A model generated the notes under the pieces. That model did no database searches. It was not told the origin of the DNA and worked only from the letters and a program-made list of their open reading frames with translations. A stretch of DNA of 37,419 nt, from NCBI GenBank assembly GCA_964361105.1, contig CAYHZG010000003.1:1-37419 (forward strand), in the 5' to 3' direction. Positions 1 through 37,386 of the stretch are shown piece by piece. The position numbers and the translations under genes are program-made. The stretch comes from an uncultured Candidatus Saccharibacteria bacterium. Lineage in GTDB: Bacteria > Patescibacteriota > Minisyncoccia > 2-02-FULL-40-12. Each line of letters begins with the position of its first letter. Positions within the stretch are counted from its first letter, which is position 1.

Positions 1-3000
1 ACTCAATTCACGGGTCTTGAACTAGCCGGGTTTGCCTCAATCTCTGCTACCGGAGCTAACAACTTTAATCTTAATCTGACCGGCACCGGGGATTTCTTAG
101 TCCAAGACAATGGCACCACCTTCTTAACCTTGTCTGATACCGGGGCCTTTACTCTGACTCTTGATTCAACTGATAACCCGGCCATGACCATCACCAACAA
201 TGGTTCTTCAAATGTGATCTACAATCTGGCTGGGACCGGGGACTTCACCATCCAGGATAATGGCACTGATATCTTGTTTGTCTCTGATCTTGGCCGAGTC
301 GGAGTCAACACCAATGCTCCCCAGACTTTATTTGAGGTCCAAGGCACTGCCTCGGCTTCTTACTTCTTAACTGGTAATACTTTACAGGTGGGTGGTTTTG
401 CTTCAGCCGCTTATTCCAGGTTTGGCGTCGGCACCGCCACCTCGGCTGAAATCAATACGATTGATGACCTCTTAATTGTCGGGGCCCTGGAAGTCGACGC
501 CAATGCCTTCTTTGACGCTAAAGCCAGTATCTCGGGTAATTTCCAGACGGCTGGCCGTTTCATCTTTGGTGATTCAGGTGATACTGGTGAAATTAATACC
601 TCGGACTGGGATATTGATGCGACCGGAGTTTTAACCGGTATCTCGGGCATCACCACTAACGGCACCTACACTCAATCCGGCACCGGGGCCAACACCTTTA
701 CCGGTCTTTCTTCCTTCTCCGGCGGAGTCTCGGTTTCGACCAACTTTGAGATTACCGGTAATAACCGATTGGGCATTAATGCTGGTGGAGCAACCACCAC
801 CTCTTTAGAGGTGGGCGGGAGCGCCTCCATATCAGCTGACATTGCTTTCTTTGGCGAGCTCCTGCCTGACGGCCTGACTTGTTCTAACGGCCAGATCCTT
901 AAGAAGACCGGAGCCAATGATTGGGACTGCGGGGCGGATCTAACTACTGCAGGAAGTGGGGTTACGTCTAACTCCCTTGACTTTGATGAATTCGTGAACT
1001 CAATGACTACTGACCAAGACACGACCATCACTGCTTCATCTTCTCTGACTTTTAACTTGACCACCACTGATGACATTATCTTTCAAGATAATGGCACTGC
1101 CTTCCTAACCCTCTCTGATACTGGTACCTTCATTTTTGCCGGCACCGGCTCTAATACTGCTACCGGCGAATGGAACTTTGATTCCAACACCTTGGTCATT
1201 GATTCCGGGACCAATAGAGTCGGCATCGGCACCACTGATTTAGCCCAGGCCCTTGAAGTAGCCGGCACGGCTAGTATCAGTGCTGACGTCGCTTTCTTTG
1301 GCGAGCTCCTGCCTGATGGAGCCACCTGTTCTAACGGCCAGATTCTTAAGAAGACTGGAGCCAATGATTGGGACTGTGCGGCTGACGCCGGCGGTTCGGT
1401 TACTTCCAACTCTCTTGACTTTGACGAGTTCGTGAACTCAATGACTACTGACCAAGATACGACCATTACTGTTTCAAGCTCTTTGACTTTTAATCTGACT
1501 ACTGCTGATGACTTAATTTTCCAAGACAATGGCGTTACCCGTTTCATCTTCACTGATGGCGGTTTAGTGGGTATCAATACCAGTACCCCTCAAACCATCT
1601 TTGAGGTTCAAGGTACTGCCTCAGCCTCATACCTCCTAACCGGCAACACATTACAAGTGGGAGGCTATTCAACGGTCGCTTATTCAAGGTTCGGAACAGA
1701 CGCAACCGGCTACTCGAACTTTATTACTACCACAAATGATCTTCTTATCTCCGGCGACTTAGAAGTCAACGCCACGTCTCAATTCGATTCGTTTGTCAGA
1801 ATAAGCAAGAATGATGCCAAAGCATTTAGAGTAACAGACGTCGGTGGGGTTTATCAGGATATATTCGTGGTTGATACGACAAGTTCGGCAAGCAATGCTG
1901 GTATAGAAATAACCGGAGGAGTATCACAAACTGGCGATCTTTTCAAAATACAAAATTCAGCCGAGACAGCACTTTTGAGAGTCCAGCCAGATGGCGCCTT
2001 AATTATAGTGAATGCCGACCTAACTATCGGTGGTGCATCTTCGTTGAGCGCACCGCTTTACTTTGATGAGGATAGGGGGACGCTGATTACGAGACAGCTT
2101 CTTAGGTCAGAATTCAATCTAAGAGAGGATTTTTCTGCTTCGAGGGCAGATCTCACAGTTGACGCAATTATCGGCGGTGAAACCGAATCATTTATTTTTG
2201 ACGAGATAGGCAGCCTTACAGGGGACTATGTTGATGATACAACTGGTGGAGTATTTAGATGTAATACGGATGCTGCTGCTGACGGATGCTCAATTGTTAA
2301 CGGCGGAATAGCAAGTACGGTGGATCTGATATTTAACGCCAGTAATTTCCCAACGGGATTATTCAAGGTAAAACCTGGCGGCTCTAATGGCACCACAGAA
2401 ATAGAAGTCGGATTTGATGCCAATTTTTCAAACGGAGGCACTGCTTCTGGCAGTTCTGGGTTTTTCTTTAGCAATAACAACGGTACTACCTGGATCGGAG
2501 CGGCAAAATCTTCTAATTCGGATATAGCCACCGTTAGTTGCGGAGTGACAGTTTCTACCACCCAGTACGCTCTGCTTATGGTTCAAGTGCTGTCTACCAC
2601 TCAAGCCAGATTTTTAGTCGATGGGGACGTGTCTGACGGGATTTCATTTACCGATTGTGGCGTTGCAACTACGTCTTCTGCGCAAAGCGGCAATATGTCG
2701 GCCCATATTTTCTATCTTATTCAAACAGGCGGAACCAGTACGGATATGGATATTGATTTTATTGATCTAACCCAAGACGATCCGGTTGGCGGTTCTCCAG
2801 TTTCAGATCAAAGTCAGGCGATGCAACAGCAAAAAGCGTTCAATTCGGTTACGTCGGCTGACATAGCAGAGGCATACTTAGCAGACGACGCCTCGAGTTT
2901 ACTGCCGGGAACTATTTTGAGTATAAGCGCCAGTCGATCATATACCCCTACCACGAGCAGCCTCACGGCTTCGGGAAGTTTAGAATTCACGACGGCGTCG

Positions 3001-4860
3001 GCAAGTATTAAGGTTGCGCCTAGTCAGAAAAGCTACGATAAAAAGGTTATCGGGGTAGTGGCTGCAAATCCATACTTGGTTTTAGGCGATGTTAGAGAAG
3101 ACACAGTCAAAGTGGCAATGGCCGGGAGAGTACCGGTCAAAGTCAATCTTGAAGGAGGGCCGATTATACCTGGAGATTATCTGACTACTTCATCTGTGCC
3201 CGGTGAAGCCATGAAAGCCACTAAAGCTGGTTCGGTTATAGGAAAGGCGCTTGAAGCTTGGAACGGGCCGAAAATAAATCCGCAGATTGACGAGATGATA
3301 AATGAAATATACCCGGGAACAGATACTTCAAATATGATTATGATGTTTGTGTCGCCCAGCAGTTATACCGGAGAATTTATTAGTGAAACGGAGGCAATGA
3401 ATAGCAGAGAGATTTTGTCCGAACTTTTGGCCAGAAATGCCGGTTTGCCAAAAGGGTTGGAAACACCGATTGAGAGTCAAATATATACTGACCGAATAAT
3501 TGCTCAAAGAGAAATAGTAGCTCCGAAGATTACCGCCGAAGAAATATTTGTCGGAAAGCTCGCCGGTTTAGAGGGCAGGGATTTGGAAGTAAATCTTAAT
3601 GACCAGTCAAAATTAAAAGTAACTGATGGAAGGAACGCGACTCCAATGGTTACCATAGATAACAAAGGAAATGCTTATTTTGCCGGAGAAATTACGGCGA
3701 ATAAGATAAATGCAGCCCAGGTTTCCGGACTGGAGATGATCACAGAAAAGCTGACATTATTACAAGATCAAATAGCAAGCAGCTCGACGCCAAGCGATTC
3801 AATTAACCTTTCGTATGCTACAGTAGGCGGGTTGTTGGTTCAGGGAGATAGCAGATTTACGGGATCGGCGTCGTTTGAAAACTTAAGAGCCTTCAATATA
3901 GTCGCCGATACCATAAAAAGTCCGATGCTGACTACTATTAACGATCGGTTGTCGCTATTATCCAGTAGAGATACCCAGTTCGAAAACCAATTAGCATTAA
4001 TAAACGGTCAATTGGCATCTTTGACAGATTCAGCGGGTTCACTATTGGCGAGTTCTTCGTTTAATCCTAATAAAGATTTGGCCCTTAACGCTGGTCTGTC
4101 CGTTGCAGGTTCAGCAATACTTAATGGGGGATTAATAGTTAATCAAATCGGTTCTGGAGGAGAATCAGTTCTATTTAATAGCGATGTTAATTTCTTTGGT
4201 CGGCCGTACTTTAATTCAGATACAGGAGGGTTTATTGTAATGACCGAAGGGTCCAACTACGCAAGCATTTCGTTTGAAAGAGAGTACCTAAGCCAGCCGG
4301 TAGTTAATGTAACCATCTCGCTTAATGCCGCATCGGCAAGCGCGGAAGACGAGGAGAGATTATTTAATGAAGACATAAGGTATATTGTGACGCAAAAGAA
4401 TACAAAAGGATTTGCTATCAGGCTTAATAAACCGGCGCCATTTGACTTGCAGTTCAGCTGGGTAACCTTGGCAATTAAGGATGCGAAGACCGTATTTTCG
4501 CCTCGTCCTTCTACGATATTAACGGGTCCATCTCCAATACCAGACGCCGGGAATACAGCCTCGAGCACGCCCGATTTACCAGCTTCATCTTCTGGTTTGG
4601 GGCCAATCGTGACAACACCGACTCCAACGCCAACGCTTGAGCCCACGCCAGGAGCAACTTCCCAGGAGGGAGCAGCCAGTCCTACGCCTCCAGCTTCGGC
4701 TGGCACAGCAGAACCGACGCCCGAACTCACACCCGAGCCTACTCCGGCACCAAGTTTAACACCGGAAACAACCCCAACCCCGACCCCAACCCAGACACCG
4801 GCACCAACACCTGTGCCAGAGCCAACACCTGTGCCAGAAGAGCCAGCCCCAACGCCATAA
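1..4860 (+). CDS. Giant repetitive Ser/Thr/Gly-rich surface (fibre/adhesin-like) protein, 5'-truncated by the window edge; Peptidase_G2/IMC-like domain and Pro/Thr-rich C-terminal tail
   Basis: Frame 1 is open from base 1 (the ORF track starts at TTG 130). Internal repeats; tail-fibre-like VGI(N/G)T motifs; SADIAEAY...VIGVV...VAMAGRVPVKV...IIPGDYLTTSSVPGEAMKA...IGKALE block; TPEP/TPTP tail. Confidence 0.75.
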   Translation, partial: TQFTGLELAGFASISATGANNFNLNLTGTGDFLVQDNGTTFLTLSDTGAFTLTLDSTDNPAMTITNNGSSNVIYNLAGTGDFTIQDNGTDILFVSDLGRVGVNTNAPQTLFEVQGTASASYFLTGNTLQVGGFASAAYSRFGVGTATSAEINTIDDLLIVGALEVDANAFFDAKASISGNFQTAGRFIFGDSGDTGEINTSDWDIDATGVLTGISGITTNGTYTQSGTGANTFTGLSSFSGGVSVSTNFEITGNNRLGINAGGATTTSLEVGGSASISADIAFFGELLPDGLTCSNGQILKKTGANDWDCGADLTTAGSGVTSNSLDFDEFVNSMTTDQDTTITASSSLTFNLTTTDDIIFQDNGTAFLTLSDTGTFIFAGTGSNTATGEWNFDSNTLVIDSGTNRVGIGTTDLAQALEVAGTASISADVAFFGELLPDGATCSNGQILKKTGANDWDCAADAGGSVTSNSLDFDEFVNSMTTDQDTTITVSSSLTFNLTTADDLIFQDNGVTRFIFTDGGLVGINTSTPQTIFEVQGTASASYLLTGNTLQVGGYSTVAYSRFGTDATGYSNFITTTNDLLISGDLEVNATSQFDSFVRISKNDAKAFRVTDVGGVYQDIFVVDTTSSASNAGIEITGGVSQTGDLFKIQNSAETALLRVQPDGALIIVNADLTIGGASSLSAPLYFDEDRGTLITRQLLRSEFNLREDFSASRADLTVDAIIGGETESFIFDEIGSLTGDYVDDTTGGVFRCNTDAAADGCSIVNGGIASTVDLIFNASNFPTGLFKVKPGGSNGTTEIEVGFDANFSNGGTASGSSGFFFSNNNGTTWIGAAKSSNSDIATVSCGVTVSTTQYALLMVQVLSTTQARFLVDGDVSDGISFTDCGVATTSSAQSGNMSAHIFYLIQTGGTSTDMDIDFIDLTQDDPVGGSPVSDQSQAMQQQKAFNSVTSADIAEAYLADDASSLLPGTILSISASRSYTPTTSSLTASGSLEFTTASASIKVAPSQKSYDKKVIGVVAANPYLVLGDVREDTVKVAMAGRVPVKVNLEGGPIIPGDYLTTSSVPGEAMKATKAGSVIGKALEAWNGPKINPQIDEMINEIYPGTDTSNMIMMFVSPSSYTGEFISETEAMNSREILSELLARNAGLPKGLETPIESQIYTDRIIAQREIVAPKITAEEIFVGKLAGLEGRDLEVNLNDQSKLKVTDGRNATPMVTIDNKGNAYFAGEITANKINAAQVSGLEMITEKLTLLQDQIASSSTPSDSINLSYATVGGLLVQGDSRFTGSASFENLRAFNIVADTIKSPMLTTINDRLSLLSSRDTQFENQLALINGQLASLTDSAGSLLASSSFNPNKDLALNAGLSVAGSAILNGGLIVNQIGSGGESVLFNSDVNFFGRPYFNSDTGGFIVMTEGSNYASISFEREYLSQPVVNVTISLNAASASAEDEERLFNEDIRYIVTQKNTKGFAIRLNKPAPFDLQFSWVTLAIKDAKTVFSPRPSTILTGPSPIPDAGNTASSTPDLPASSSGLGPIVTTPTPTPTLEPTPGATSQEGAASPTPPASAGTAEPTPELTPEPTPAPSLTPETTPTPTPTQTPAPTPVPEPTPVPEEPAPTP
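805..1563 (+). repeat. Duplicated ~100-aa module in the giant protein (~805-1126 and ~1252-1563)
   Basis: ASISAD(I/V)AFFGELLPDGxTCSNGQILKKTGANDWDC...VTSNSLDFDEFVNSMTTDQDTTIT..SSLTFNLTT.DD.IFQDNG occurs twice with near-identical DNA. A second module (FEVQGTASASY.LTGNTLQVGG...AYSRFG) occurs at ~298-500 and ~1567-1770. Confidence 0.95.
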
Positions 4861-14280: not shown

Positions 14281-14865
14281 ATGAGATATAAATTTGCCGT
14301 TTCCGGAGCAGCCGATACGGGCATGTGCGAGATAGACGCCCCGACTAAAGCCGAAGAAGTGGGCCGGGAGGTGGTTCGTCAGGGCGGGATATTGGTTACC
14401 GGCGCCACCAATGGCATCCCTGATTTTGCGGCCAAAGGAGCCAAAGACGAAGGCGGAGTTGTGATTGGCATGAGCCCGGCCGCCTCTTATCAGCATCACG
14501 TTAAAACCTATAAACTGCCAACTGATTACTATGACACCATAATTTTCACTGGATTTGATTACTCGGGCCGTAATTTGTTATTGACAAAGTCAGCCGATGC
14601 CGTTATTATTATATGCGGTGGCTTTGGAACTTTGAACGAATTTACGATTGCCTTGGAAGACAATAAGCCGATCGGCGTTTTAACTGGAACCGGCGGCACC
14701 GCCGAAGAGATTGCCGGACTTTTAACCGAAATTGAGGATCCCCATCGGCATGGTGCCGGAAAAGTTATTTTTAATGAAAACCCAAAAGAGTTGATTTCAG
14801 AGCTGGTTAAATTAATTGAAAAAGACCAAAAAGAATTAAAAATTTCTCCGCCAATCGGAGAATAG
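14281..14865 (+). CDS. LOG/TIGR00725-like Rossmann-fold nucleotide-binding protein
   Basis: LVTGATNG, GRNLLL, ADAVIIICGGFGTLNEF, GTGG. Confidence 0.85.
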   Translation: MRYKFAVSGAADTGMCEIDAPTKAEEVGREVVRQGGILVTGATNGIPDFAAKGAKDEGGVVIGMSPAASYQHHVKTYKLPTDYYDTIIFTGFDYSGRNLLLTKSADAVIIICGGFGTLNEFTIALEDNKPIGVLTGTGGTAEEIAGLLTEIEDPHRHGAGKVIFNENPKELISELVKLIEKDQKELKISPPIGE

Positions 14866-14872
14866 TGGTCGA

Positions 14873-14985
14873 TCCCGTTAGAAGTTAACCCTAACGGGAG
14901 TAAACATGAATTATCTTATTATAAAGTTTTATAATCTTTGCCACTGGTTTAAGGCGGTGGATGATCTGTAAAACTTCTAACGGGA
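14873..14985 (+). mobile_element. Family A element, copy 1 (113 nt), ending on the A of the downstream ATG
   Basis: TCCCGTTAGAAGTT...AACTTCTAACGGGA terminal inverted repeat; internal CCCTAACGGG. Confidence 0.8.
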
Positions 14986-15236
14986 TGGCTGAAGAAAAAC
15001 TTGTCGGAAAAATAACCCACTATTATAATGCTATCGGAGTCGGAATTATTGAGTTATCTGGTGCTTTGAAAGTAGGGGACGCAGTCCATATTAAAGGCAA
15101 AGCGACTGATTTTGAACAAATGGTTGATTCTTTGCAGATTGAGCATAAAGAGGTTCAAAGCGCCAAAAAAGGTGACGTGATTGGGATTAAGACGAAGCAG
15201 AAGGTAAAAGAAGGGGACGAAGTCTATCTAAAATAA
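14985..15236 (+). CDS. Small translation-factor-like beta-barrel protein (U32 C-terminal-like)
   Basis: MAEEKLVGKITHYY...LKVGD.VHIKG..TDFEQ.VDSLQIEH...GIK...VKEGDEVY. The ORF-track extension MICKTSNG lies inside the repeat. Confidence 0.8.
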   Translation: MAEEKLVGKITHYYNAIGVGIIELSGALKVGDAVHIKGKATDFEQMVDSLQIEHKEVQSAKKGDVIGIKTKQKVKEGDEVYLK

Positions 15237-15257: not shown

Positions 15258-17657
15258 ATGAGCGAATTCAAGATCAATAATTTTACCGTTAAAGACGAAC
15301 TCCCGGTAATTGCTTTAAAGGAGGTAGTTTTATTTCCGACCTTAATCGTTCCAAATATAATCATTGGCCGGCCTAAAACCATGGCCGCTTTGGGCAAAGC
15401 CATGATTGAAGATAAGCTGGTTATCTTTGTCGCTCAGAAAAATCTATCAGAAGAGGTCAGTCCGGAAAATCTTTATTCGGTCGGAACCCTGGGCCGGATT
15501 AATCTGGTTTTAAAGGCCAATGGCGGCACCGCCAGAATTGAAGTCGAAGGTCTTAAAAGAGTCAGAATTTTGAATTTTCCGAAAACCGAGCCGTATCTAG
15601 CGGCCAAAATTGAACCGCTTGATATTCAGAAAGGAGATAATCTTGAAGTTGAGGCCTTGGTTAGATCGGTTTTGGAGAATTTTGACAAGGTTTCAGAAGT
15701 GGTTAGGCCGCTCCCGCCGACCTTTTTTAATTTAATTAAAAGCATCAAAGACCCGGAGCAGGTTTTATCGCTGATTGTTTATCACTTGGGCTTCAATGTT
15801 GTTGACCAGCAAAGAATTTTGGAAACAACCGATATCAGAGAGGTGCTTAGAGAAATTAATAAACATTTGGTTAAAGAATTGGAAATTTTGGAAACCGAGA
15901 AAAAGTTGGCCAAGGAAACCAGAAAGCAGCTTGGTAAGATGCAAAAGGAGGTTTATCTGCGGGAACAGCTTCGGAGTATTGAAAAGGAATTGGGCTTGGC
16001 TGGAGAAAAAACCGAGTTTGAAATGCTTCGCAAAAAAATAAAAGATGCCAAAATGCCCAAAGAAGTCGAGGCCAAAGCAACCAAAGAACTTGAACGGATG
16101 GAAAAAATGCCTTCATTCAGCCCAGAAGTCGCCTATATCAGGACTTATCTTGATTGGCTGGTTGAACTGCCTTGGTCTAATTCGACCAAAAACAAGATAG
16201 ACATTAAAAAGGCAGCCAAAATTTTGGAGGAGGACCATTTTGGCCTTGAAAAAGCTAAGGAAAGAATTCTGGAGTATCTGGCCGTCCAAAAACAAGTTGG
16301 TAAGATTAAAGGCCCAATTCTTTGTTTTATGGGGCCGCCCGGAACCGGCAAAACCTCAATCGGCCAGTCAATCGCAAGGGCTCTCGGCCGGAAGTTTTTA
16401 AGAATTTCTCTTGGCGGCATCAGGGATGAAGCCGAGATAAGGGGCCACCGCCGAACTTATGTTGGTGCTTTGCCCGGCCGGATTATTCAAGGGATTCATA
16501 GCGTCAAGGTCAATAATCCGGTTTTTATGCTGGATGAGATTGATAAAATCGGCTATGACTTCCGGGGCGACCCGTCAGCCGCTTTGCTTGAGGCCTTGGA
16601 TCCTCAGCAAAACAATTCATTCTCTGACCACTACCTTGAGACACCCTTTGACTTATCCAATGTTTTCTTCATCACCACGGCCAATATCTTAGATACCGTT
16701 CCGCCGGCCCTGCGCGACCGTTTGGAAATAATTGAGTTTCCGGGTTACACCGAGCATGAAAAATTCCATATTGCCAAAGGATTTTTGATTCCTAAGCTTT
16801 TAAAAGAGCATGGTGTTGAAAAAATGGTCAGTTTTAATGATGAAGCAACCAAAGAAGTGGTCAGACGTTATACCCGCGAGGCCGGAGTGAGGGATCTTGA
16901 AAGGCAATTAGCCAAGGTGGCCAGGAAGAATGTCCGGAATTTAGTTGAATCAGGCAAAAGGGCCGGAAAAATTTCGGTTGATATTTCCTCATTAAGAAAA
17001 TTTTTAGGTCCAGAAAGATATATTTCTCAGCTCGCCGAAAAAAGAGATGAAGTTGGCGTGGCCACGGGCCTGGCCTGGACCTCAGTTGGAGGAGAAGTTT
17101 TGTCGGTTGAGGTGACTAAGATGCCGGGCAAGGGAAAACTGGAACTGACCGGTCACTTGGGCAATGTCATGAGAGAATCGGCCAAGGCAGCTTTGTCCTT
17201 TTCGAGAGCCTATGCCTCAAAAGCCAGCGACATTCTGAAAGATTTTTATAGCTACGATATTCATATTCATGTTCCTTCGGGCGCGATTCCCAAAGACGGC
17301 CCATCAGCCGGGATAACCATTTCTACGGCTTTGATTTCGCTTTTTACCGGAGCCAAAGTTAGAAAAGACGTGGCCATGACCGGCGAGGTAACATTGCGCG
17401 GCAAGGTTTTGGAAATCGGCGGGATTAAAGAAAAAGTTTTGGCGGCTCACCGAGCCGGCATTAAAAATGTGATTTTGCCCAAAGACAATGAAAAGGACTT
17501 AGACGACATACCCAAAGAAATAAATAAAGAAATGAAATTCATTTTTGTCGAGCATATGGGTGATGTTCTGAAGGCGGCTTTAAAGTGGCCCAAGGCGCCA
17601 AAAGGTGAGGTTATCCAACCGCGAAGCTTAATCGCTCAAATTCCGCGCATCTCATGA
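15258..17657 (+). CDS. lon: ATP-dependent protease La
   Basis: GPPGTGKTS Walker [27 protein letters not shown] catalytic Ser, IGGIKEK. Confidence 0.98.
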
Positions 17658-17658
17658 A

Positions 17659-17828
17659 TCCCGTTAGAAGTCGCCCTAACGGGTTAAACGAATAAAACAT
17701 CAAATGAATAAGAAAAGTAGCTCTGCGCATAAAACTAACAATGCAGACTGCGCAGTCCCGTTAGAAGCCGCGAGGGCCCGCAGCGTGCCTCTGCTTCTAA
17801 CGGGACGAAGCAGCGACTTCTAACTGGA
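17659..17828 (+). mobile_element. Family A element, copy 2, with a nested short copy; flanked by TGAA/TGAA
   Basis: TCCCGTTAGAAGTCGC...GCGACTTCTAACTGGA; TGAA at 17655-17658 and 17829-17832. Confidence 0.85.
17756..17805 (+). mobile_element. Family A short (50-nt) element nested in copy 2
   Basis: TCCCGTTAGAAG-CCGCGAGGGCCCGCAGCGTGCCTCTG-CTTCTAACGGGA. Confidence 0.85.
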
Positions 17829-25491: not shown

Positions 25492-25602
25492 CCCCGTTAG
25501 AAGTAGCCCTAACGGGTCAGTAAATTAAACAGTTATTAATTAAAGTATTTTCAGAGACACATTGGTCACTCCTATGTGTTGCTGTTACTACTTCTAACGG
25601 GG
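25492..25602 (+). mobile_element. Family A element, copy 3 (111 nt), ending on the G of the GTG start
   Basis: CCCCGTTAGAAGTAG...CTACTTCTAACGGGG 15-bp inverted repeat; internal CCCTAACGGG. Confidence 0.8.
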
Positions 25603-27092
25603 TGAAGATAATTAATATTGCTTCAAGCGATAACTTTGAAGACATTTTAGAAGCAGTCCGAACCTCTGAATCAGCCGGCCTGATTTTGATTGTTCCAAAA
25701 TCAAACCGGGTTTTTAAAAGTGGGGCCAGGGTTAATAAACTAAAAGATTACTTTGATAAATTAGGCAAAGACGTTTCTATAATTTCATCCAGCGACGAGA
25801 TTATTAAAAATGCTAACTTAGCTGGCTTTAATATTCTTCAAGAAACCAAGATGGCCGATAAAAAAGACGAGGAGATTGTTTCTCTGTATTCAGAAGAGCC
25901 GCCTCAAGAAAAAGAGATTAAGAGTATTCCCCATCCCGTCAGAGTCAGAGCTAGAATCAGTAATAAAAAGATTATTTTTATCTTTTTAGCCGTGGCCCTG
26001 CTTTCACTTGGTTTTATTGCTTTTATTTCAGTTAGCCAGGCAAAAATAAAAATAACTCCCGGCAAAAAAGATTTTTCCGTGAATATTCCAGTAATGGTTT
26101 CTAGTAGTATCACTAGGCCTGATGAGGTCTATGGAATGATACCCGGCGAATTGATTCAGGTTGAAAAAGTTGTATCAAAGACATTTACAGCTAGTGGCGA
26201 TAAAGAAGTTTTTCAGAAAGCCGAAGGCGAGATAATTATTTATAATAACTTTAGCGCGGTTCCACAGGTATTAGTGGCCACAACCAGATTCCAGACACCC
26301 GAAGGTTTGGTTTTTAGGATCTTAAAGACGGTCACGGTTCCAGGAAAAGTAAAGGTTGGCAACGAACTTAAGCCAGGCGAGATTAAGGCAAAAGTTATCG
26401 CTGACCGGGCTGGCGAAGAATACAATATTGAACCGACCGAATTCAAAATCCCCGGTTTTTTAGGGGGCCCGAAATATCAAGCATTTTACGCCAAGTCGTT
26501 CAGTAGTTTTTCTGGCGGTTTTGTGGGTCGGTCCAGTTTCGTAACCAAAGATGACTTGAAAAAAGCAGAAGAGCAAGTTCGGCAGGAAGCGATAAGCGAT
26601 GTAAAAAATGAATTGGCTTTACTAAAGGATTTTAAAATTTTAGAAGAGGCCCTGGAAATAGAAACGGAAAAAATGCCTGACTCAGCCAAGGATGGCGATT
26701 TGGTCAAAGAATTTAAGGTAAGTTTAAAGGCAAGAGCAAAAGCACTAGCTTTCAAAGAAAGCGATGTTATGGATTTTATCTCTCAATACATAAGCAATTC
26801 GCAGGGTCTCATGATTATTAGAAACGGACTGAGTATAAATTATAACGAGCCGAAGCTGGACAAAGCGAAAATGGAACTTTCTTTTAAGCTGGTTTCTCGG
26901 GGCAAGACCGCTGAAAATGTAGATAAGGAAAGGATAATCACCGAGATTTTAGGTAAAAAGGCACCCGAAGTTAAAAAGTATCTTGGCAATCTGAAAGAAA
27001 TTGAATCAGCCCAGGTTCTTCTTTCGCCCTTTTGGATCAAGGCAGTCCCTAAAAACAGGGATAAAATCAGAGTGGAGATCATAATTGAATAG
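25602..27092 (+). CDS. Single-TM protein with baseplate J-like domain
   Basis: KAEGEIIIYN, LVATTRF, VIADRAGEEYNI, FSGG, LSPFW. Confidence 0.65.
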   Translation: MKIINIASSDNFEDILEAVRTSESAGLILIVPKSNRVFKSGARVNKLKDYFDKLGKDVSIISSSDEIIKNANLAGFNILQETKMADKKDEEIVSLYSEEPPQEKEIKSIPHPVRVRARISNKKIIFIFLAVALLSLGFIAFISVSQAKIKITPGKKDFSVNIPVMVSSSITRPDEVYGMIPGELIQVEKVVSKTFTASGDKEVFQKAEGEIIIYNNFSAVPQVLVATTRFQTPEGLVFRILKTVTVPGKVKVGNELKPGEIKAKVIADRAGEEYNIEPTEFKIPGFLGGPKYQAFYAKSFSSFSGGFVGRSSFVTKDDLKKAEEQVRQEAISDVKNELALLKDFKILEEALEIETEKMPDSAKDGDLVKEFKVSLKARAKALAFKESDVMDFISQYISNSQGLMIIRNGLSINYNEPKLDKAKMELSFKLVSRGKTAENVDKERIITEILGKKAPEVKKYLGNLKEIESAQVLLSPFWIKAVPKNRDKIRVEIIIE

Positions 27093-27148
27093 GCCTTGCT
27101 TTTTTACTCCGCTTATAATATATTCATTAAGCACCATAGCACCATATA

Positions 27149-27361
27149 TTGAATAATAAGCAAAAGAACACAAAATCCGGTCAAGTTGTAGAAAGCCTCC
27201 CCAATGCTTATTTTAGGGTCAAGCTGGAAGACGGCAAAGTAGTTTTAGCCCATATTTCAGGAAAGATGCGGCTTTTTTATATTAAGGTGATGGTGGGCGA
27301 TAGGGTTTTAGTTGAGTTGAGCCCGGATGAGGAGAGAGGCCGGATCGTGAAAAGGTTATAG
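27149..27361 (+). CDS. infA: Translation initiation factor IF-1
   Basis: [35 protein letters not shown]. Confidence 0.97.
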
Positions 27362-27540
27362 AAAATTTATTCTTGTCTTTGCTGAATGGGAATATTTGGT
27401 TCGCTCATTCTCGGGCATTCCAGCGATGCCCTCCGAGGTCGTCGGCCGTTTTGCCTCGCTATTGCTCGGACCAAGCCAAAACGGCCTCCGAATCCGCTTA
27501 CCAAACATTCCCATTCAGCTTTCCTAAAATTTTCTATAAC
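27355..27540. repeat. Nested inverted-repeat structure after infA
   Basis: GTTATAGAAAATTT / AAATTTTCTATAAC (14 bp), GCTGAATGGGAATATTTGGT / ACCAAACATTCCCATTCAGC, GGCCGTTTTG / CAAAACGGCC. Confidence 0.8.
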
Positions 27541-27726
27541 GAAAAGCCCGCAGGGTATGGTTGTTGAGGAACCTCGTGAACCGAGCCGTTTTGAGGAGAT
27601 ATGCTTTATAGCGAGGCGAACGAGGAGTGAGGGTTTATTCTGATAAACAGGAGATAAGATAATTATATAAGATGTATGAGGCCGAACGTTTCCGAAACAA
27701 CTATACCCGAGAGGCCTTTCGTTATA
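27535..27726 (+). repeat. Family C element, copy 1 (conserved core 27567-27693 inside a long closing stem)
   Basis: Core aligns to the reverse complement of 37232-37359. Confidence 0.85.
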
Positions 27727-27730
27727 CACA

Positions 27731-27844
27731 ATGAGAATTCGTTCAGCAGTCAAAAAAATGTGCCGGAATTGTAAAATTGTCCGAAGAAAAGGACGGCTAT
27801 ATTGCATTTGCAGGAATCCGAAGCATAAGCAGAGACAGAAGTAA
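27731..27844 (+). CDS. rpmJ: 50S ribosomal protein L36 (Zn-binding form; below the ORF-track cutoff)
   Basis: [37 protein letters not shown], in canonical position. Confidence 0.97.
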
Positions 27845-28017
27845 GTTTTTGTCCAAGAGCGAAGCGATTGGTAACAAAAAGTTACCGAGCACATAAGGCG
27901 TTATGTGCTCGGTGTCAGAGCACACAATAAAATTGTGTGCTCGATCGAGCACTTAACAGAGTTAAGTGCTCTGACTCAATGTTGTAGCTATTCGCTTCGC
28001 TCATAGACAACATTGGC
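27845..28017 (+). promoter_or_regulatory. Structured rpsM leader (family D, copy 1) with three GAGCAC...GTGCTC hairpins
   Basis: GAGCGAAGCGA 27857-27867 pairs with TCGCTTCGCTC 27992-28002; three internal hairpins. Confidence 0.6.
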
Positions 28018-28404
28018 ATGGCTAGAATTTCAGGGGTCAATATTCCAGACAACAAGCGAATAGAAGTTGCCTTAACCTATATTTATGGAATAGGTTCGAC
28101 TTTAAGTAAGCTAGTTTTAAAAACAACCGGCGTGAATCCAGACAAAAGGGCTAAGGATTTAACCAGCGATGAAATTAACAAAATTCAAAACGTTATAGAA
28201 AAAAATTATCAGGTGGAGGGCGATTTGAGAAGGGAAGTATTGGATAATATAAAACACATGAAAGAATCTGGAACCTGGCGGGGGATGAGACATTCTAAAA
28301 AACTGCCTCTTCATGGCCGGACCAAAACTAATTCAAGAACTTTAAGGGGGAACCTTAGAAAGACAATGGGTTCGGGCAGAAGGCCGCCGGCGACGCCGAC
28401 TTAA
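28018..28404 (+). CDS. rpsM: 30S ribosomal protein S13
   Basis: MARISGVNIP, ALTYIYGIG, VEGDLRR, RTKTNSRT. Confidence 0.98.
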   Translation: MARISGVNIPDNKRIEVALTYIYGIGSTLSKLVLKTTGVNPDKRAKDLTSDEINKIQNVIEKNYQVEGDLRREVLDNIKHMKESGTWRGMRHSKKLPLHGRTKTNSRTLRGNLRKTMGSGRRPPATPT

Positions 28405-28526: not shown

Positions 28527-28997
28527 GTGGGTAAAAAAAGAATTGTGGTAAAACCTGGTGATGAGACATTGACCATTGAAAAAGGGGTTGAGGTTAAGGT
28601 TTCCCCGCTACATAAAGTAGCGGGGCAGGCAAAAAAAGCTGTCAAAAAACAAGTGATCAGGGGCAATGTTTTTATTCACGCCAGTTTTAATAACACGATT
28701 GTTACCGTTACTGATGAAAAAGGAAATGTGATAACTTGGGCTTCGGCCGGAAACCTTGGTTTTAAAGGCACGAAAAAATCAACGCCTTTTGCGGCGACGT
28801 TGGTTGGAAAAGCCGCCGCTGAAAAAGCAAGAAAATTCGGTTTTACCGAAGCCGAGGTTTACGTAAAAGGAGTCGGGCCTGGTCGGGAGGCGGCCATTCG
28901 AGGTTTATTTTCGGCCGGCATAGATATTAAAGGAATAATTGATAATACGCCGATTCCGCATGGCGGGGTCAAGCCGCCGAAACCTAGGAGGGTTTAG
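28527..28997 (+). CDS. rpsK: 30S ribosomal protein S11
   Basis: ASFNNTIVTVTD, GFKGTKKSTPFAA, GPGRE, TPIPHGG. Confidence 0.98.
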   Translation: MGKKRIVVKPGDETLTIEKGVEVKVSPLHKVAGQAKKAVKKQVIRGNVFIHASFNNTIVTVTDEKGNVITWASAGNLGFKGTKKSTPFAATLVGKAAAEKARKFGFTEAEVYVKGVGPGREAAIRGLFSAGIDIKGIIDNTPIPHGGVKPPKPRRV

Positions 28998-29127
28998 TTT
29001 TTGTCTAAGAGCGAAGCGATTAGCAACAAAATCTAAACCGAGCACTCAGCAAGGAAAATTATTTACATTTCTGAGTGCTCGGTGCTGAAATTTATAGTTG
29101 CTCGCCGAGCTCGCAAATAAATTTCGC
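28996..29127 (+). promoter_or_regulatory. Structured rpsD leader (family D, copy 2)
   Basis: Same 5' block as the rpsM leader; hairpin ACCGAGCACTCAG / CTGAGTGCTCGGT. Confidence 0.6.
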
Positions 29128-29766: not shown

Positions 29767-29781
29767 GCAAAGCCATATGGA

Positions 29782-29896
29782 TCCCGAACGAAATAGCCCT
29801 GTCGGGTTCGGGATATAAGTAAAATTTTAATTAAATAGCATGATGGGCAATTATAGACTTATGTATATAACTGCGCAGCAGCTATTTCGTACGGGA
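29782..29896 (+). mobile_element. Family A divergent copy 4 (115 nt) before rpoA; flanked by TGGA/TGGA
   Basis: TCCCGAACGAAATAGC...GCTATTTCGTACGGGA; shares ACTGCG(C/A)AGCAGC with copy 5 and, split by the nested insert, copy 2. Confidence 0.75.
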
Positions 29897-33662: not shown

Positions 33663-33778
33663 CCCCGTTAGAAGTAGCCCTAGCGGGTGAAACACTCGGG
33701 GTATTAAATATATAACAATAGTAGTTCTGCGTGCATAACCGATTATTACGGACTGCGAAGCAGCTACTTCTAACGGGG
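33663..33778 (+). mobile_element. Family A element, copy 5 (116 nt) before mreB; flanked by TGAA/TGAA
   Basis: CCCCGTTAGAAGTAGC...GCTACTTCTAACGGGG 16-bp inverted repeat; TGAA at 33659-33662 and 33779-33782. Confidence 0.85.
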
Positions 33779-34779: not shown

Positions 34780-36005
34780 AAATTGCTCTTATCCACGACT
34801 GGCTGACTCGGCTTGGCGGAGCCGAGAGAGTGTTGATTGCTTTACATAAGATTTTTCCCGAAGCTCCGATCTACACTCTTTTTCATGACCAAAAATTTAC
34901 CTCAGAATATCTGCCTCGAGCAAAAATAATTCCTTCTTTTCTCCAAAAAATCCCAAATATCAAAAAACTGCACCCCTGGTTTAAGATTTTAATGCCTTCG
35001 GCAGTGGAATCTTTGGATTTATCCGGTTTTGATTTGATTATTTCTTCAAGCCATGAGTTTAGCCACGGCGTTTTAGTAAAGCAAAAAACCAGCCACATCT
35101 GCTTTTATCACAGTCCTTCCCGGATTATCTGGGACCGGGCTCACGAATATTTAAGTGATTTTAAAGAAAGGGGACGGGGAAGATTTAAATTGTCGCTAAT
35201 AAAACTGGGCCAGCATTTTTTACGGCTGTGGGACTACACCTCTAGTCAAAGGCCGGACATTATTTTAGCAAACTCTAGACATGTGGCTGAAAGGATAAAA
35301 AAATACTATGGCAGAGAAGCAAAAGTGGTATATCCTCCGATTTCGTTCCCGATGGATTCATTGGGATTACGAAATCGAGAGTCCTCGATTTTCCAACCAA
35401 ATCAGATTGATTTGGGGAAAATCGGGACGCCATACTTTCTGATTGTTTCCCAGCTTTACCCGCACAAGAACATTGATTTAGCGATTGAAGCATTTAAAAA
35501 CTTGCCAAACCTTAATTTACTGACAATAGGGGACGGACCGAAAAAAAAGAATTTAGAATCACGAATCAAAAATTATGGGAATGTAAAATTATTAGGATTT
35601 GTGCCGGATTCGGAACTGCCTTATTATTATCAAAACTGCTTAGCTTATCTTATTTGTAACGAAGAGGACTTTGGCCTTTCGCCGGTTGAAGCAATGTCTT
35701 TTGGCAAACCAGTTCTGGCTTTAAGGCGAGGCGGTGCAATTGAGACAGTTTTGGAGGGTATAACTGGAGAATTCTTTGACCCCATTAGAGGTAAAAACAC
35801 GCTGCGGGCCCTCGCGGCCTCTAACGGGGTAAATGAACTTGTAAAAGCTGTTCAAAATATTAGTGAAAAAATTAAAAATGGCCGCTACGATTCCAAGACC
35901 ATAAAAAAACATTCCGAAAAATTTAGCTTTGAACGGTTTAAAAAAAGGATTCTGGATTTAGTAGATAATTTGGATTATACTGGAAAAACAAGAAAAACAA
36001 TATGA
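34776..36005 (+). CDS. Glycosyltransferase family 4 carrying two palindromic in-frame insertions
   Basis: MKIALIHDWL..GGAERVL, ANS, YPP, GDGP, EEDFGLSPVEAM.FGKPVLA. Confidence 0.93.
   Translation: MKIALIHDWLTRLGGAERVLIALHKIFPEAPIYTLFHDQKFTSEYLPRAKIIPSFLQKIPNIKKLHPWFKILMPSAVESLDLSGFDLIISSSHEFSHGVLVKQKTSHICFYHSPSRIIWDRAHEYLSDFKERGRGRFKLSLIKLGQHFLRLWDYTSSQRPDIILANSRHVAERIKKYYGREAKVVYPPISFPMDSLGLRNRESSIFQPNQIDLGKIGTPYFLIVSQLYPHKNIDLAIEAFKNLPNLNLLTIGDGPKKKNLESRIKNYGNVKLLGFVPDSELPYYYQNCLAYLICNEEDFGLSPVEAMSFGKPVLALRRGGAIETVLEGITGEFFDPIRGKNTLRALAASNGVNELVKAVQNISEKIKNGRYDSKTIKKHSEKFSFERFKKRILDLVDNLDYTGKTRKTI
35335..35427. repeat. Family B element, copy 3 (in frame in GT4)
   Basis: CTCCGATTTCGT...ACGAAATCGAGAGTCCTCGATTTTCC...GGAAAATCGGGA. 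Confidence 0.8.
35780..35829 (-). mobile_element. Family A short (50-nt) element in frame in GT4
   Basis: Reverse complement reads CCCCGTTAGAGG-CCGCGAGGGCCCGCAGCGTG-TTTTTA-CCTCTAATGGGG; same length and core as 17756-17805. Confidence 0.85.
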
Positions 36006-37207: not shown

Positions 37208-37386
37208 CCCTACCTTTGGCAATGCCTTTCAGGAAACGTTCGGCCACGTACAACTTTAATAATTAGTTTGGTTCTCTGTTTATCAGAATAAACCCTCGCT
37301 CCTCGCTCGCCTCGCTACATATCTTATCTTCTCTTAACGGCTCGGCTCATGAGGTTCCTGAGAAGGCATCGCCAAACGGGCTATAG
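37202..37386 (-). repeat. Family C element, copy 2 (inverted; core 37232-37359)
   Basis: Core matches 27567-27693; closing stem CTATAGCCC/GGGCTATAG, TTTGGC/GCCAAA, ATGCCTT/AAGGCAT. Confidence 0.85.

What the first reader, a model, noticed from the sequence alone, without database searches (positions are those of the whole stretch)
14873..14985. Family A long copies encode a two-state fold at the start codon
The 5' arm CCCGTTAG can pair with a nearby CTAACGGG (14891 here; also copies 2 and 3; CTAGCGGG with a G-U pair in copy 5), or with the distal arm that includes the first bases of the start codon. The rpoA copy keeps both options using different sequence (ATCCCGAAC / GTTCGGGAT at 29806). 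The 50-nt copies, which are not at starts, lack the proximal partner. Inference: an anti-sequestration hairpin or translational switch. Alternatively CCC-TNNC-GGG is just a conserved mini-hairpin.
Basis: partly seen in the sequence, partly recalled or inferred. Interest (0 to 1): 0.75.

Follow-up and report, generated by a model that had tools for sequence, protein, structure and literature searches.

The report
Decoy hairpin in start-codon mobile elements
A tiny mobile DNA element that sits exactly on gene start codons in ultra-small groundwater bacteria carries a spare hairpin that can stop its two ends from folding together and hiding the start codon.

Summary
In window 14873-14985 and four sister copies, the 5' end CCCGTTAG can pair with a partner 9 nt downstream or with the 3' end that abuts the start codon.

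What it is: a gene-less derivative of a 266-289 bp cassette that has the same termini and encodes only an ~85-residue GIY-YIG nuclease. It makes a 4-bp target duplication (TGAA, TGGA, TGAG), and its last base rebuilds the ATG or GTG.

In a sample chosen without regard to the proximal motif:
- 62 of 72 long copies abut a gene start.
- 53 of those 62 carry the proximal partner, always at the gene-distal end. None of the 72 has it at the other end.
- 0 of 13 nuclease-coding parents has it.

At equilibrium the long terminal stem wins. It raises the cost of opening the start region to 15.5 kcal/mol, against 5.6 for ordinary genes and 5.4 when the 5' arm is occupied.

Best reading (about 0.45): a built-in kinetic decoy that keeps the start codon open. 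It is not a ligand switch.

Main rival: ribosomes arriving from upstream, which reach the 5' arm in 57 of 62 copies, do the opening.

There are no RNA data. Sibling elements were already noted elsewhere in this scan.

The parts
14873..14985 (+). Focal long copy of the element. Terminal T at 14873 and terminal A at 14985; the A is the first base of the ATG of an 83-residue EF-Tu-domain-2-like protein.
   Evidence: (nhmmer E 2.7e-17). In relatives a 30-36 nt AT-rich spacer stands in its place.
14874..14886 (+). 5' arm, CCCGTTAGAAGTT. It can pair either with 14891-14898 (its first 8 nt) or with 14972-14984.
14891..14898 (+). Proximal partner CTAACGGG (the decoy). With the 5' arm it forms an 8-9 bp hairpin with a 9-nt loop.
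   Evidence: prefix fold -15.3 kcal/mol.
14972..14987 (+). Distal (3') arm AACTTCTAACGGG plus the start codon ATG (14985-14987). A and T of the ATG pair with 14872-14873 in the terminal stem.
   Evidence: start codon paired in the minimum-energy fold.
14961..14963 (+). In-frame ATG inside the element. It would add MICKTSNG to the protein. It lies outside the terminal stem and is a possible alternative start.
   Evidence: ORF 14961..15236. Not conserved in the sister copies I read (listing).
17659..17828 (+). Long copy 2, after lon. The left ATG (17654-17656) overlaps the lon stop TGA. Proximal partner at 17676-17683. The right ATG at 17828 starts a 68-residue membrane protein. Flanks are ATGAAT on both sides.
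17757..17804 (+). 48-nt hairpin-only copy nested inside copy 2. The same composite also lies at G000 C5:9966-10133.
   Evidence: (I2).
25492..25602 (+). Long copy 3 (termini C...G). Proximal partner at 25509-25516. It ends on the GTG of a 496-residue ORF.
29782..29896 (+). Long copy 4 at rpoA, of the variant subfamily. 5' arm ATCCCGAAC 29781-29789, proximal partner GTTCGGGAT 29806-29814, distal arm ATTTCGTACGGG. The left ATG 29777-29779 is the old start and the right ATG is at 29896. Target duplication TGGA.
   Evidence: (empty sites in five relatives).
33663..33778 (+). Long copy 5 at mreB (termini C...G). Proximal partner CTAGCGGG at 33680-33687. GTG start at 33778.
   Evidence: the MreB profile matches from residue 2.
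35781..35828 (+). 48-nt hairpin-only copy inside a GT4 glycosyltransferase ORF, read in frame as PIRGKNTLRALAASNG. It has no proximal partner.

Best explanation
Shown here.
- Family A long copies are gene-less derivatives of a very small mobile cassette. The parent is 266-289 bp, has the same termini, and carries only a GIY-YIG nuclease gene.
- The element inserts into a 4-bp target, mostly TGAA, TGGA or TGAG. In practice this is the TG of a start codon plus two bases.
- Its last base (A or G) rebuilds an ATG or GTG in front of the gene. The old start codon is left on the far side.

Inferred.
- On the mRNA the two termini are complementary over 13-20 bp. At equilibrium they would bury the rebuilt start codon.
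- In the nuclease-coding parent, ribosomes read through the whole element. They stop on the TGA of the host's ATGA overlap, so the stem is kept open.
- The gene-less copies have stops inside. Instead they carry, right behind the 5' terminus, a second copy of the 3'-terminal sequence.
- This partner is transcribed about 85 nt before the real 3' arm. It folds with the 5' arm into an 8-9 bp hairpin and so occupies it.
- That leaves the 3' arm and the start codon as open as in an ordinary gene for seconds to minutes.
- Each ribosome that runs into the 5' arm, from the upstream gene or from the orphaned old start codon, probably resets this state.

Overall it is a passive, built-in insulator that makes start-codon insertions tolerable. 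It is not a ligand-sensing switch.
For: Mobile element.
- The termini and the 4-bp duplication are exact in 41 of 62 start-adjacent copies.
- Termini T...A go with ATG (55) and C...G with GTG (7), without exception.
- The rpoA site is empty (ATGGAAAT) in five relatives. It is filled in G000 and G005 by two different subfamilies.
- Long copies with perfect 11-nt termini occur in 41 of 105 genomes of the order.
- The exact 24-mer was found in 47 stretches of genome contigs. All but one carry Patescibacteria-type MAG titles.

Parent cassette.
- Elements of 263-293 bp with the same termini occur in 17 of 105 genomes.
- All 13 analysed encode PF01541 GIY-YIG (E 1e-9 to 4e-19).
- 11 of the 13 sit at a host start. 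In all 11 the nuclease stop is the TGA of the host ATGA.

Need for relief.
- The full-length minimum-energy fold is the terminal stem in 11 of 12 G000 copies (-37.6 to -75.5 kcal/mol).
- Opening energy of the start region is 15.5 (full), 5.4 (5' arm blocked) and 5.6 (80 ordinary genes).
- Shine-Dalgarno use is near background: 9.3% against 7.8%.

Decoy.
- The proximal partner forms at least 7 of 8 pairs in 53 of 62 start-adjacent copies. It is never at the gene-proximal end (0 of 72).
- When the 5' half is folded alone, the 5' arm is paired in 47 of 62. When the 3' half is folded alone, the 3' arm is paired in 0 of 62.
- 0 of 13 nuclease-coding parents have the partner. The in-frame short copies lack it too.

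Pairing is kept.
- Compensated pairs seen: CCCGTCAG/CTGACGGG, CCCGCTAG/CTAGCGGG, CCCGTAGG/CTTACGGG (4 copies) and ATCCCGAAC/GTTCGGGAT. In several of these the distal arm is not compensated.
- On 100 aligned copies the covariation score is 0.080 against 0.064 shuffled (2 of 500 shuffles reach it). Slid controls pair 28-55% against 80%.
- With arm TTAG, the partner variants are mostly wobble-compatible transitions: CTAG about 22, CTGA about 8, CTAAT 3, against 1-2 disruptive transitions. This is my hand tally of the listing.

Kinetics.
- The estimated barrier from the proximal to the distal state is 11.3-20 kcal/mol.
Against: - 9 of 62 start-adjacent copies have no proximal partner, so it is not obligatory.
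- The CCCGAACG and CCCGTACG subfamilies (at least 14 listed copies each) keep CTAACGGG uncompensated. Many, but not all, of the 17 I fetched have a second, weaker partner (CGGGAT or CGGGGT) about 12 nt further on.
- 4 of 10 copies away from starts still carry the motif. It is therefore inherited with the element, and the association (Fisher p 0.004) is confounded by family.
- Covariation of the proximal helix is modest: 2 pairs and 6 cells with double changes. It is far weaker than for the terminal stem, which has 119 such cells. That sample was, however, chosen for good termini.
- In the enforced proximal state, the minimum-energy fold still pairs part of the start codon with weak partners in 11 of 12 copies.
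- Equilibrium favours the distal stem by 0.7-21.5 kcal/mol in 11 of 12 copies.
- The barrier and kinetic figures come from direct-path heuristics without pseudoknots or ribosomes. The result is not monotonic at the lowest threshold.
- Ribosomes from upstream reach the 5' arm in 57 of 62 copies and could be sufficient by themselves.
- No RNA data exist for this organism in the runs offered.
- The copies are related, so counts overstate independence.
Confidence: 0.45

Rival explanations
1. Ribosome-driven unmasking (hairpin-bridged translational coupling). The terminal stem is opened by ribosomes that terminate at the upstream gene's stop, or that translate the short frame from the orphaned old start codon. 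The stem also holds that stop next to the rebuilt start. The proximal hairpin is an incidental remnant, for example of a nested mini-hairpin copy.
For: - 57 of 62 start-adjacent copies have one or both of two features: a kept left start codon (42), or an upstream open frame of at least 50 codons whose stop lies 4-12 nt before the element or inside it (34).
- All 9 copies without the proximal partner have such traffic.
- The parent cassette works this way: in 11 of 11 the nuclease stop is the TGA of the host ATGA.
- The terminal arms are highly conserved (93.8% paired).
- A solitary 28-nt mini-hairpin copy exists at G000 C35:437.
Against: - 5 of 62 copies have neither kind of upstream translation. 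All five have a perfect proximal partner. The numbers are too small to test.
- This reading does not explain why the partner is kept through compensatory and wobble changes.
- It does not explain why the partner is always gene-distal.
- It does not explain why only the forms that are not read through have it.
- A ribosome stopped 10-12 nt upstream, as at the focal copy (stop at 14863), would barely reach the arm.
Confidence: 0.25
2. DNA-level feature. The proximal hairpin is the single-strand DNA hairpin that the element's GIY-YIG nuclease recognises, as NTS/SRM hairpins are for Ssn nucleases. Copies that carry a local mimic of the terminal duplex are mobilised better. Any RNA effect is a by-product.
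For: - Ssn GIY-YIG nucleases cut single-stranded DNA next to hairpin repeats that flank their own genes and occur in hundreds of copies (PMC11893778; abstract and sections 6, 7, 10 and 17 read, plus found passages from other sections).
- Family A termini flank GIY-YIG genes in the same way.
- The motif is kept in copies away from starts.
- G-T pairs are also tolerated in DNA hairpins (my knowledge).
Against: - 0 of 13 nuclease-coding elements have the proximal partner, so it is not needed for an element to be a substrate.
- Strict orientation relative to genes (53 to 0) is not expected from a symmetric-ended element. The few copies away from starts show duplications of both polarities: TTGA in 3 and TCAA in 2. 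That is a small sample.
- Family A ends do not fit the published SRM search pattern: 2 hits in G000, none on the 12 long copies.
Confidence: 0.12
3. RNA processing or an internal promoter. The long terminal stem is cut (RNase III type), or transcription starts inside the element. Either way the translated mRNA lacks the 5' arm, and the two-state fold is irrelevant to translation.
For: - The terminal stems are 13-20 bp.
- RNase III cuts Correia-element hairpins in Neisseria transcripts (review PMC10969869, passage seen).
- There is one weak promoter-like match inside the focal copy: TTGCCA-16-GATGAT, 14938-14965.
Against: - Promoter-like sites are not enriched: 35 found against 31 +/- 5.5 expected.
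- That match lies on a hairpin motif (GCCACYGG...CGGTGG) whose second hexamer varies among the sister copies that I read by eye in the and 58 outputs.
- This reading does not explain the conserved, oriented proximal partner.
- It cannot be tested with the data on hand.
Confidence: 0.08
4. A true regulated switch (ligand, temperature or trans-factor) that toggles translation of the downstream gene.
For: There are two mutually exclusive helices. In the rpoA and C23 copies the two states are nearly isoenergetic (-36.9 against -37.6, and equal in C23).
Against: - No Rfam family matches.
- The interiors differ between subfamilies. Mean column identity is 53%, with no consensus in the middle.
- The element is found in front of unrelated genes and moves between sites.
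Confidence: 0.05

Closest known systems
Ssn nucleases with NTS/dRS3/SRM hairpin repeats (Chenal et al. 2025, PMC11893778; abstract and sections 6, 7, 10, 17 read, with found passages)
   Same: - A small single-domain GIY-YIG gene is flanked on both sides by copies of a hairpin-forming repeat.
- The repeat is also scattered through the genome in many gene-less copies.
- The authors note that this layout looks like an insertion sequence.
- The repeat core is a CCC...GGG hairpin.
   Different: - Family A ends do not fit the published SRM pattern.
- The nearest solved relative of the nuclease is UPF0213 (1zg2, E 6e-8). Membership of the Ssn clade (cd10448) could not be tested.
- The paper's main text has no occurrence of 'start codon' or 'Patescibacteria'.
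- Here there is a 4-bp target duplication, insertion at start codons, a nuclease stop fused to the host ATGA, and a decoy hairpin in the gene-less copies.
Correia elements (CREE/NEMIS) of Neisseria and other transcribed bacterial MITEs such as ERIC (review PMC10969869, passages seen; details otherwise recalled)
   Same: - Short elements with terminal inverted repeats.
- They are co-transcribed with genes and fold into long hairpins on mRNA.
- They affect the expression of neighbouring genes.
   Different: - Correia elements duplicate TA and are cut by RNase III (recalled, and from the review passage).
- They are not confined to start codons.
- That review's main text has no occurrence of 'start codon', 'ribosome' or 'orientation'.
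- No decoy partner is described there.
Rickettsia palindromic elements (review PMC10969869, passages seen)
   Same: Palindromic elements that insert in frame into ORFs and are translated. The 48-nt Family A copies behave the same way: they are read as P[VI]RG..TLRALAASNG in five ORFs of G000.
   Different: The long copies contain stops and are found at start codons, not inside ORFs.
Fold-back inhibition in IS10/IS50, and alternative-hairpin leaders such as attenuators or ermC-type leaders (recalled; my search found no paper with the phrase)
   Same: - A sequence near an element's end pairs with the start region of a downstream gene and blocks initiation.
- A competing upstream hairpin or a passing ribosome decides which helix forms.
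   Different: - In IS10/IS50 the gene protected is the element's own transposase, and the pairing is the purpose.
- Here the gene is the host's, and the competing hairpin appears to neutralise the pairing.
- No leader-peptide logic or sensing is evident.
REP/REPIN elements with RAYT (Y1) transposases (recalled; cited in PMC11893778 discussion)
   Same: Short hairpin repeats spread by a single small enzyme that acts on hairpins.
   Different: - Y1_Tnp-like genes occur in 53 of 105 genomes of the order. They are not flanked by the Family A motif in the 4 loci read.
- They do not track the elements: 25 of 41 element-bearing genomes have one, against 28 of 64 others (overlap counted by hand).

Membership tests
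MITE (non-autonomous element with terminal inverted repeats) | Terminal inverted repeats | tested here: met
   The termini are 13-20 nt and complementary. 93.8% of cells are paired over 17 columns in 100 copies.
MITE (non-autonomous element with terminal inverted repeats) | Target-site duplication and empty sites | tested here: met
   An exact 4-bp duplication in 41 of 62 copies. Empty rpoA sites in five relatives. The focal copy itself has no duplication and replaces a spacer.
MITE (non-autonomous element with terminal inverted repeats) | No coding capacity, many copies, and a larger coding relative with the same ends | tested here: met
   12 long copies in G000. Coding relatives of 266-289 bp with the same termini were analysed in 13 cases.
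MITE (non-autonomous element with terminal inverted repeats) | The parent encodes a DDE-type transposase | tested here: not met
   Seven families (PF01609, PF00665, PF13358, PF13359, PF01548, PF07282, PF00872) gave 0 of 5 element-rich genomes. The parent encodes a GIY-YIG nuclease instead.
Ssn / SRM system | A small single-domain GIY-YIG gene flanked on both sides by the repeat | tested here: met
   13 of 13 elements.
Ssn / SRM system | The repeat fits the published SRM search pattern | tested here: not met
   2 matches in G000, none on the 12 long copies.
Ssn / SRM system | The nuclease belongs to clade cd10448 and cuts single-stranded DNA at the hairpin | not testable with these tools
   No CDD library and no assay are available. 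The nearest solved sequence is UPF0213 1zg2, E 6e-8.
Riboswitch or other regulated RNA switch | A conserved sensing core shared by all copies | tested here: not met
   No Rfam match at gathering score. The interiors have no consensus across subfamilies.
Kinetic anti-sequestration leader (works-like claim, not a curated family) | An upstream partner that competes with the sequestering arm and is transcribed first | tested here: met
   53 of 62 copies, always 5'. The prefix folds form it.
Kinetic anti-sequestration leader (works-like claim, not a curated family) | The proximal state persists long enough in vivo and raises translation | not testable with these tools
   Only heuristic barriers are available: 11.3-20 kcal/mol and a heuristic simulation. 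No RNA runs are listed.
Correia element | TA target duplication | tested here: not met
   The duplications are TGAA 32, TGGA 14, TGAG 8 and others 8.

The most novel reading that the evidence does not exclude
The gene-less copies are a self-insulating mobile leader. A nuclease-borne element rode host start codons by translational coupling. After losing its gene it evolved an RNA device, a 5' decoy hairpin that passing ribosomes reset. The device lets it occupy the start codons of essential genes. It also ties the output of each colonised gene to upstream translation and to the age of the transcript: open while nascent or translated, shut once the terminal stem forms.
Probability: 0.2. Interest if true: 0.85.

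Novelty: new variant of a known kind. Interest (0 to 1): 0.7.

Why it matters
- It would explain how genomes of half a megabase tolerate mobile DNA at the most sensitive position of a gene, including rpoA and mreB in this window.
- It would be a natural case of a transposable element carrying its own RNA insulator.
- It matters for annotation of Patescibacteria. Start codons, GTG starts made by the element, N-terminal extensions and 110-nt structured leaders are easily miscalled.
- The mechanism can be tested with simple reporters, and the hairpin pair could serve as a compact insulator part.

Tried and rejected
- Rfam at gathering score: no match in the window. tRNA scan: none.
- Promoter scan: 35 sites against 31 expected, so no support for an element-borne promoter.
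- RNA evidence: no RNA holder listed. Only DNA contigs could be laid. They showed related-strain contigs with other letters in place of copies 1 and 2, and many loose ends at 17654/17804, as expected of a multi-copy repeat.
- Autonomous partner in G000 by distant terminal pairs: only chance one-mismatch pairs.
- DDE and related transposase families: 0 of 5 genomes for seven families.
- Y1_Tnp (IS200/RAYT-like): present in 53 of 105 genomes. It is not flanked by the motif and not correlated with the elements, so I rejected it as the mobiliser.
- SRM pattern of the Ssn paper: not met.
- 48-nt copy at C22:3426 as a counter-example 'short copy at a start': rejected, because only 11 codons follow it.
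- Splicing or programmed bypass of the element: rejected by argument. If the element were removed or hopped over, long copies would be tolerated inside ORFs. Only stop-free short copies are found there.
- Element end as a Shine-Dalgarno site: rejected. It abuts the start with no spacing, and the genome hardly uses Shine-Dalgarno sites.
- First constraint attempt was faulty and was redone. The simulation mishandled odd lengths and was redone.
- Literature: searches found no description of start-codon-inserting elements in Patescibacteria. Two MITE papers (PMC10969869, PMC11602168) have no occurrence of 'start codon' in the main text. Supplements were not read.

Full report
**1. The observation**

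The window is contig C3 of a 524-kb, 59-contig genome that is 87.6% complete.

CCCGTTAG occurs 13 times, against 0.66 expected.
- Each copy starts (T/C)CCCG...
- Four carry CT(A/G)(A/G)CGGG 8-9 nt after the 5' arm.
- Each ends ...CTTCTAACGGG directly before ATG or GTG.
- The rpoA copy uses ATCCCGAAC with GTTCGGGAT.

The terminal complementarity includes the first two bases of the start codon.

nhmmer with the aligned copies finds 12 long copies in the genome (E at most 2.3e-14). 11 of the 12 abut an ORF of at least 64 residues. All 11 have the proximal hairpin at the end away from the gene.

**2. What the thing is**

The flanks show a 4-bp direct repeat next to complementary terminal bases...A TGAA [T CCCG ... 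CGGG A] TGAA....

To avoid choosing copies by the feature in question, I searched the 105 genomes of the order with a pattern that demands only perfect 11-nt termini 78-104 nt apart.
- 41 of 105 genomes have matches.
- For the 72 distinct elements whose flanks I could read, 62 abut a start codon with an open frame in exactly one orientation. The 72 come from G000 and from the listed places; 146 further matches were not listed.
- The duplication is exact in 41 of the 62.
- The duplicated sites are TGAA 32, TGGA 14, TGAG 8 and others 8.
- Termini T...A go with ATG (55) and C...G with GTG (7), without exception. The element's last base therefore supplies the first base of the start codon.

Empty sites prove insertion. 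The rpoA start reads ATGGAAAT in five relatives. It is split by two different subfamilies in G000 and G005.

The focal copy is atypical. Relatives have a 30-36 nt AT-rich spacer between GGTCGA and the ATG. G000 has the element instead, with no duplication. G007 has an independent insertion at the same gene.

The exact 24-mer occurs in 47 stretches of the genome collection. All but one bear Patescibacteria-type titles: Candidatus Yanofskybacteria, Paceibacterota, Minisyncoccia and the like.

**3. The parent**

Earlier notes of this scan on other genomes said that similar start-codon hairpin elements have larger relatives with a tiny GIY-YIG gene. I tested that lead here.
- No DDE-type family was found in five element-rich genomes.
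- Y1_Tnp-like genes are common but unlinked.
- Small GIY-YIG ORFs are numerous.
- Elements of 263-293 bp with the Family A termini occur in 17 of 105 genomes.
- All 13 that I analysed encode PF01541 GIY-YIG proteins of 82-100 residues.
- 11 of the 13 sit at a host start codon. In all 11 the nuclease frame ends on the TGA of the host's ATGA.
- In 9 of the 13, that frame is also continuous with the host's old start codon.

The parent is thus translated by host-initiated ribosomes, which then stop on top of the host start.

The closest published system is Ssn/NTS (PMC11893778). There, small GIY-YIG nucleases cut single-stranded DNA beside hairpin repeats that flank their genes. Family A does not fit that paper's SRM pattern, and clade membership could not be tested.

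**4. Is sequestration real?**

The full-length minimum-energy fold is the terminal stem in 11 of 12 G000 copies (-37.6 to -47.1 kcal/mol; -68.7 and -75.5 for the two nested composites). In the twelfth (C23) the proximal state is itself the minimum.

For the 62 start-adjacent elements, the energy needed to open -10..+10 around the start is as follows:

| Condition | Opening energy (kcal/mol) |
|---|---|
| Full leader | 15.5 +/- 4.2 |
| 5' arm blocked | 5.4 +/- 1.6 |
| 80 ordinary genes of G000 | 5.6 +/- 3.1 |

Shine-Dalgarno use is close to background (9.3% against 7.8%), so an open start region should matter. Genes such as rpoA and mreB must be expressed. Something must therefore keep the stem from ruling.

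**5. The proximal partner**

- It forms at least 7 of 8 pairs in 53 of 62 start-adjacent copies. It is never at the other end (0 of 72).
- Folding the halves alone pairs the 5' arm in 47 of 62 and the 3' arm in 0 of 62.
- It is present in 38 of 41 copies with an intact duplication and in 15 of 21 without.
- It is absent from all 13 nuclease-coding parents.
- It is absent from the short copies that are open in frame.

Sequence variation supports pairing.
- CCCGTCAG goes with CTGACGGG, CCCGCTAG with CTAGCGGG, and CCCGTAGG with CTTACGGG (four copies). In these copies the distal arm is not compensated.
- The rpoA/C23/L163 group has the new partner GTTCGGGA(T).
- On an alignment of 100 copies the proximal helix is 80.1% paired, against 28-55% when slid. 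Its covariation score is reached by 2 of 500 shuffles.
- With arm TTAG, the variants are mostly wobble-compatible transitions (my tally).

Three results count against it.
- The CCCGAACG and CCCGTACG subfamilies keep CTAACGGG uncompensated, often with a second partner further on.
- 9 of 62 copies lack any partner.
- 4 of 10 copies away from starts keep it.

The terminal stem covaries much more strongly. Its complementarity is expected of transposon ends, however, and my sample was chosen for it.

**6. Kinetics**

The proximal hairpin is complete after about 25 nt. The competing arm appears about 85 nt later.

Direct-path barriers from the proximal to the distal state are 11.3-20 kcal/mol.

A crude co-transcriptional scheme leaves the following numbers of copies in the local state:

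|---|---|
| 8 | 10 of 12 |
| 10 | 7 of 12 |
| 12 | 3 of 12 |

With my assumed rate prefactors of 1e6-1e7 per second, this corresponds to lifetimes from fractions of a second to minutes. These figures ignore pseudoknots, proteins and ribosomes.

**7. The main rival**

In 57 of 62 copies, ribosomes from upstream should reach the 5' arm.
- 42 keep the old start codon. It opens a frame of 6-37 codons through the arm, most often 13.
- 34 have an upstream open frame of at least 50 codons that ends 4-12 nt before the element or inside it.
- All nine copies without a partner have such traffic.
- All five copies without traffic have a perfect partner.
- These numbers are too small for a test.

I therefore rank 'built-in decoy, reset by ribosomes' first (0.45). 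'Ribosomes alone, partner incidental' comes second (0.25). After these come a DNA-level role in nuclease recognition (0.12), processing or an internal promoter (0.08), and a regulated switch (0.05).

**8. Verdict**

The element family itself has been met several times elsewhere in this scan. I found no published description in the searches, or in the two MITE papers checked.

What this report adds:
- the link between the decoy hairpin and loss of the nuclease gene;
- the strict orientation of the partner;
- the energetic cost of the terminal stem.

Noticed in passing
window 35781-35828; G000 C14:1765, C14:4260, C21:5669, C6:17471: The 45-48 nt hairpin-only copies inside ORFs are always read in the same frame and orientation, as P[VI]RG..TLRALAASNG-like peptides. 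The window copy sits just after the Glycos_transf_1 domain of a GT4 enzyme.
   Followed up: partly
window 17757-17804 within 17659-17828; G000 C5:9966-10133: A 48-nt copy is nested in a long copy. The whole 168-nt composite occurs twice in the genome at two different gene starts, so the composite itself has moved or been copied.
   Followed up: partly
window 27380-28010, 28996-29046, 37232-37359; G000 C21:2300-2640: A second repeat family (arms around CCGAGCACATAAT) is present. It shows very high depth in the DNA runs at 27016-28343. The same ends flank another small GIY-YIG ORF on contig C21.
   Followed up: no
G000 C1:24380-24720 and C2:1380-1830: Two more small GIY-YIG genes. One has its own inverted ends (ATCCCGCACATAAATTGGAC). 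The other has a Family A 3' end (CTTCTAACTGG at 1791-1801) but a decayed 5' end, and is probably a dead parent copy in this genome.
   Followed up: partly
L059, L060, L082 (G014, G049, G047); L025 (G038): Some host genes appear to start at an ATG inside the element. This gives N-terminal extensions such as MKPLKLATILRRWTFGKTSNG on a pilin-like protein and MSTNSNSKPVFSTSNG on GyrA.
   Followed up: partly
L196 (G005) versus window 29782-29896: The same rpoA start site is occupied by two different subfamilies in two genera. This means either a hot spot or replacement of one copy by another.
   Followed up: no
whole genome G000: Shine-Dalgarno-like 4-mers upstream of first start codons are barely above background (9.3% against 7.8%).
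   Followed up: partly
window 130-4860: A 1576-residue ORF with internal direct repeats of 104-171 nt (repeat finder D1, D2, D5).
   Followed up: no
L014 versus L180-L182 (G020): Within one subfamily the two termini are swapped. One form has a 5' TCAG type with a 3' TAGG type, and the other form has the reverse. In each form the proximal partner matches the 5' arm.
   Followed up: partly
order-wide: Y1_Tnp-like ORFs of about 205-290 residues occur in 53 of 105 genomes, often in several copies, with no link to Family A.
   Followed up: partly
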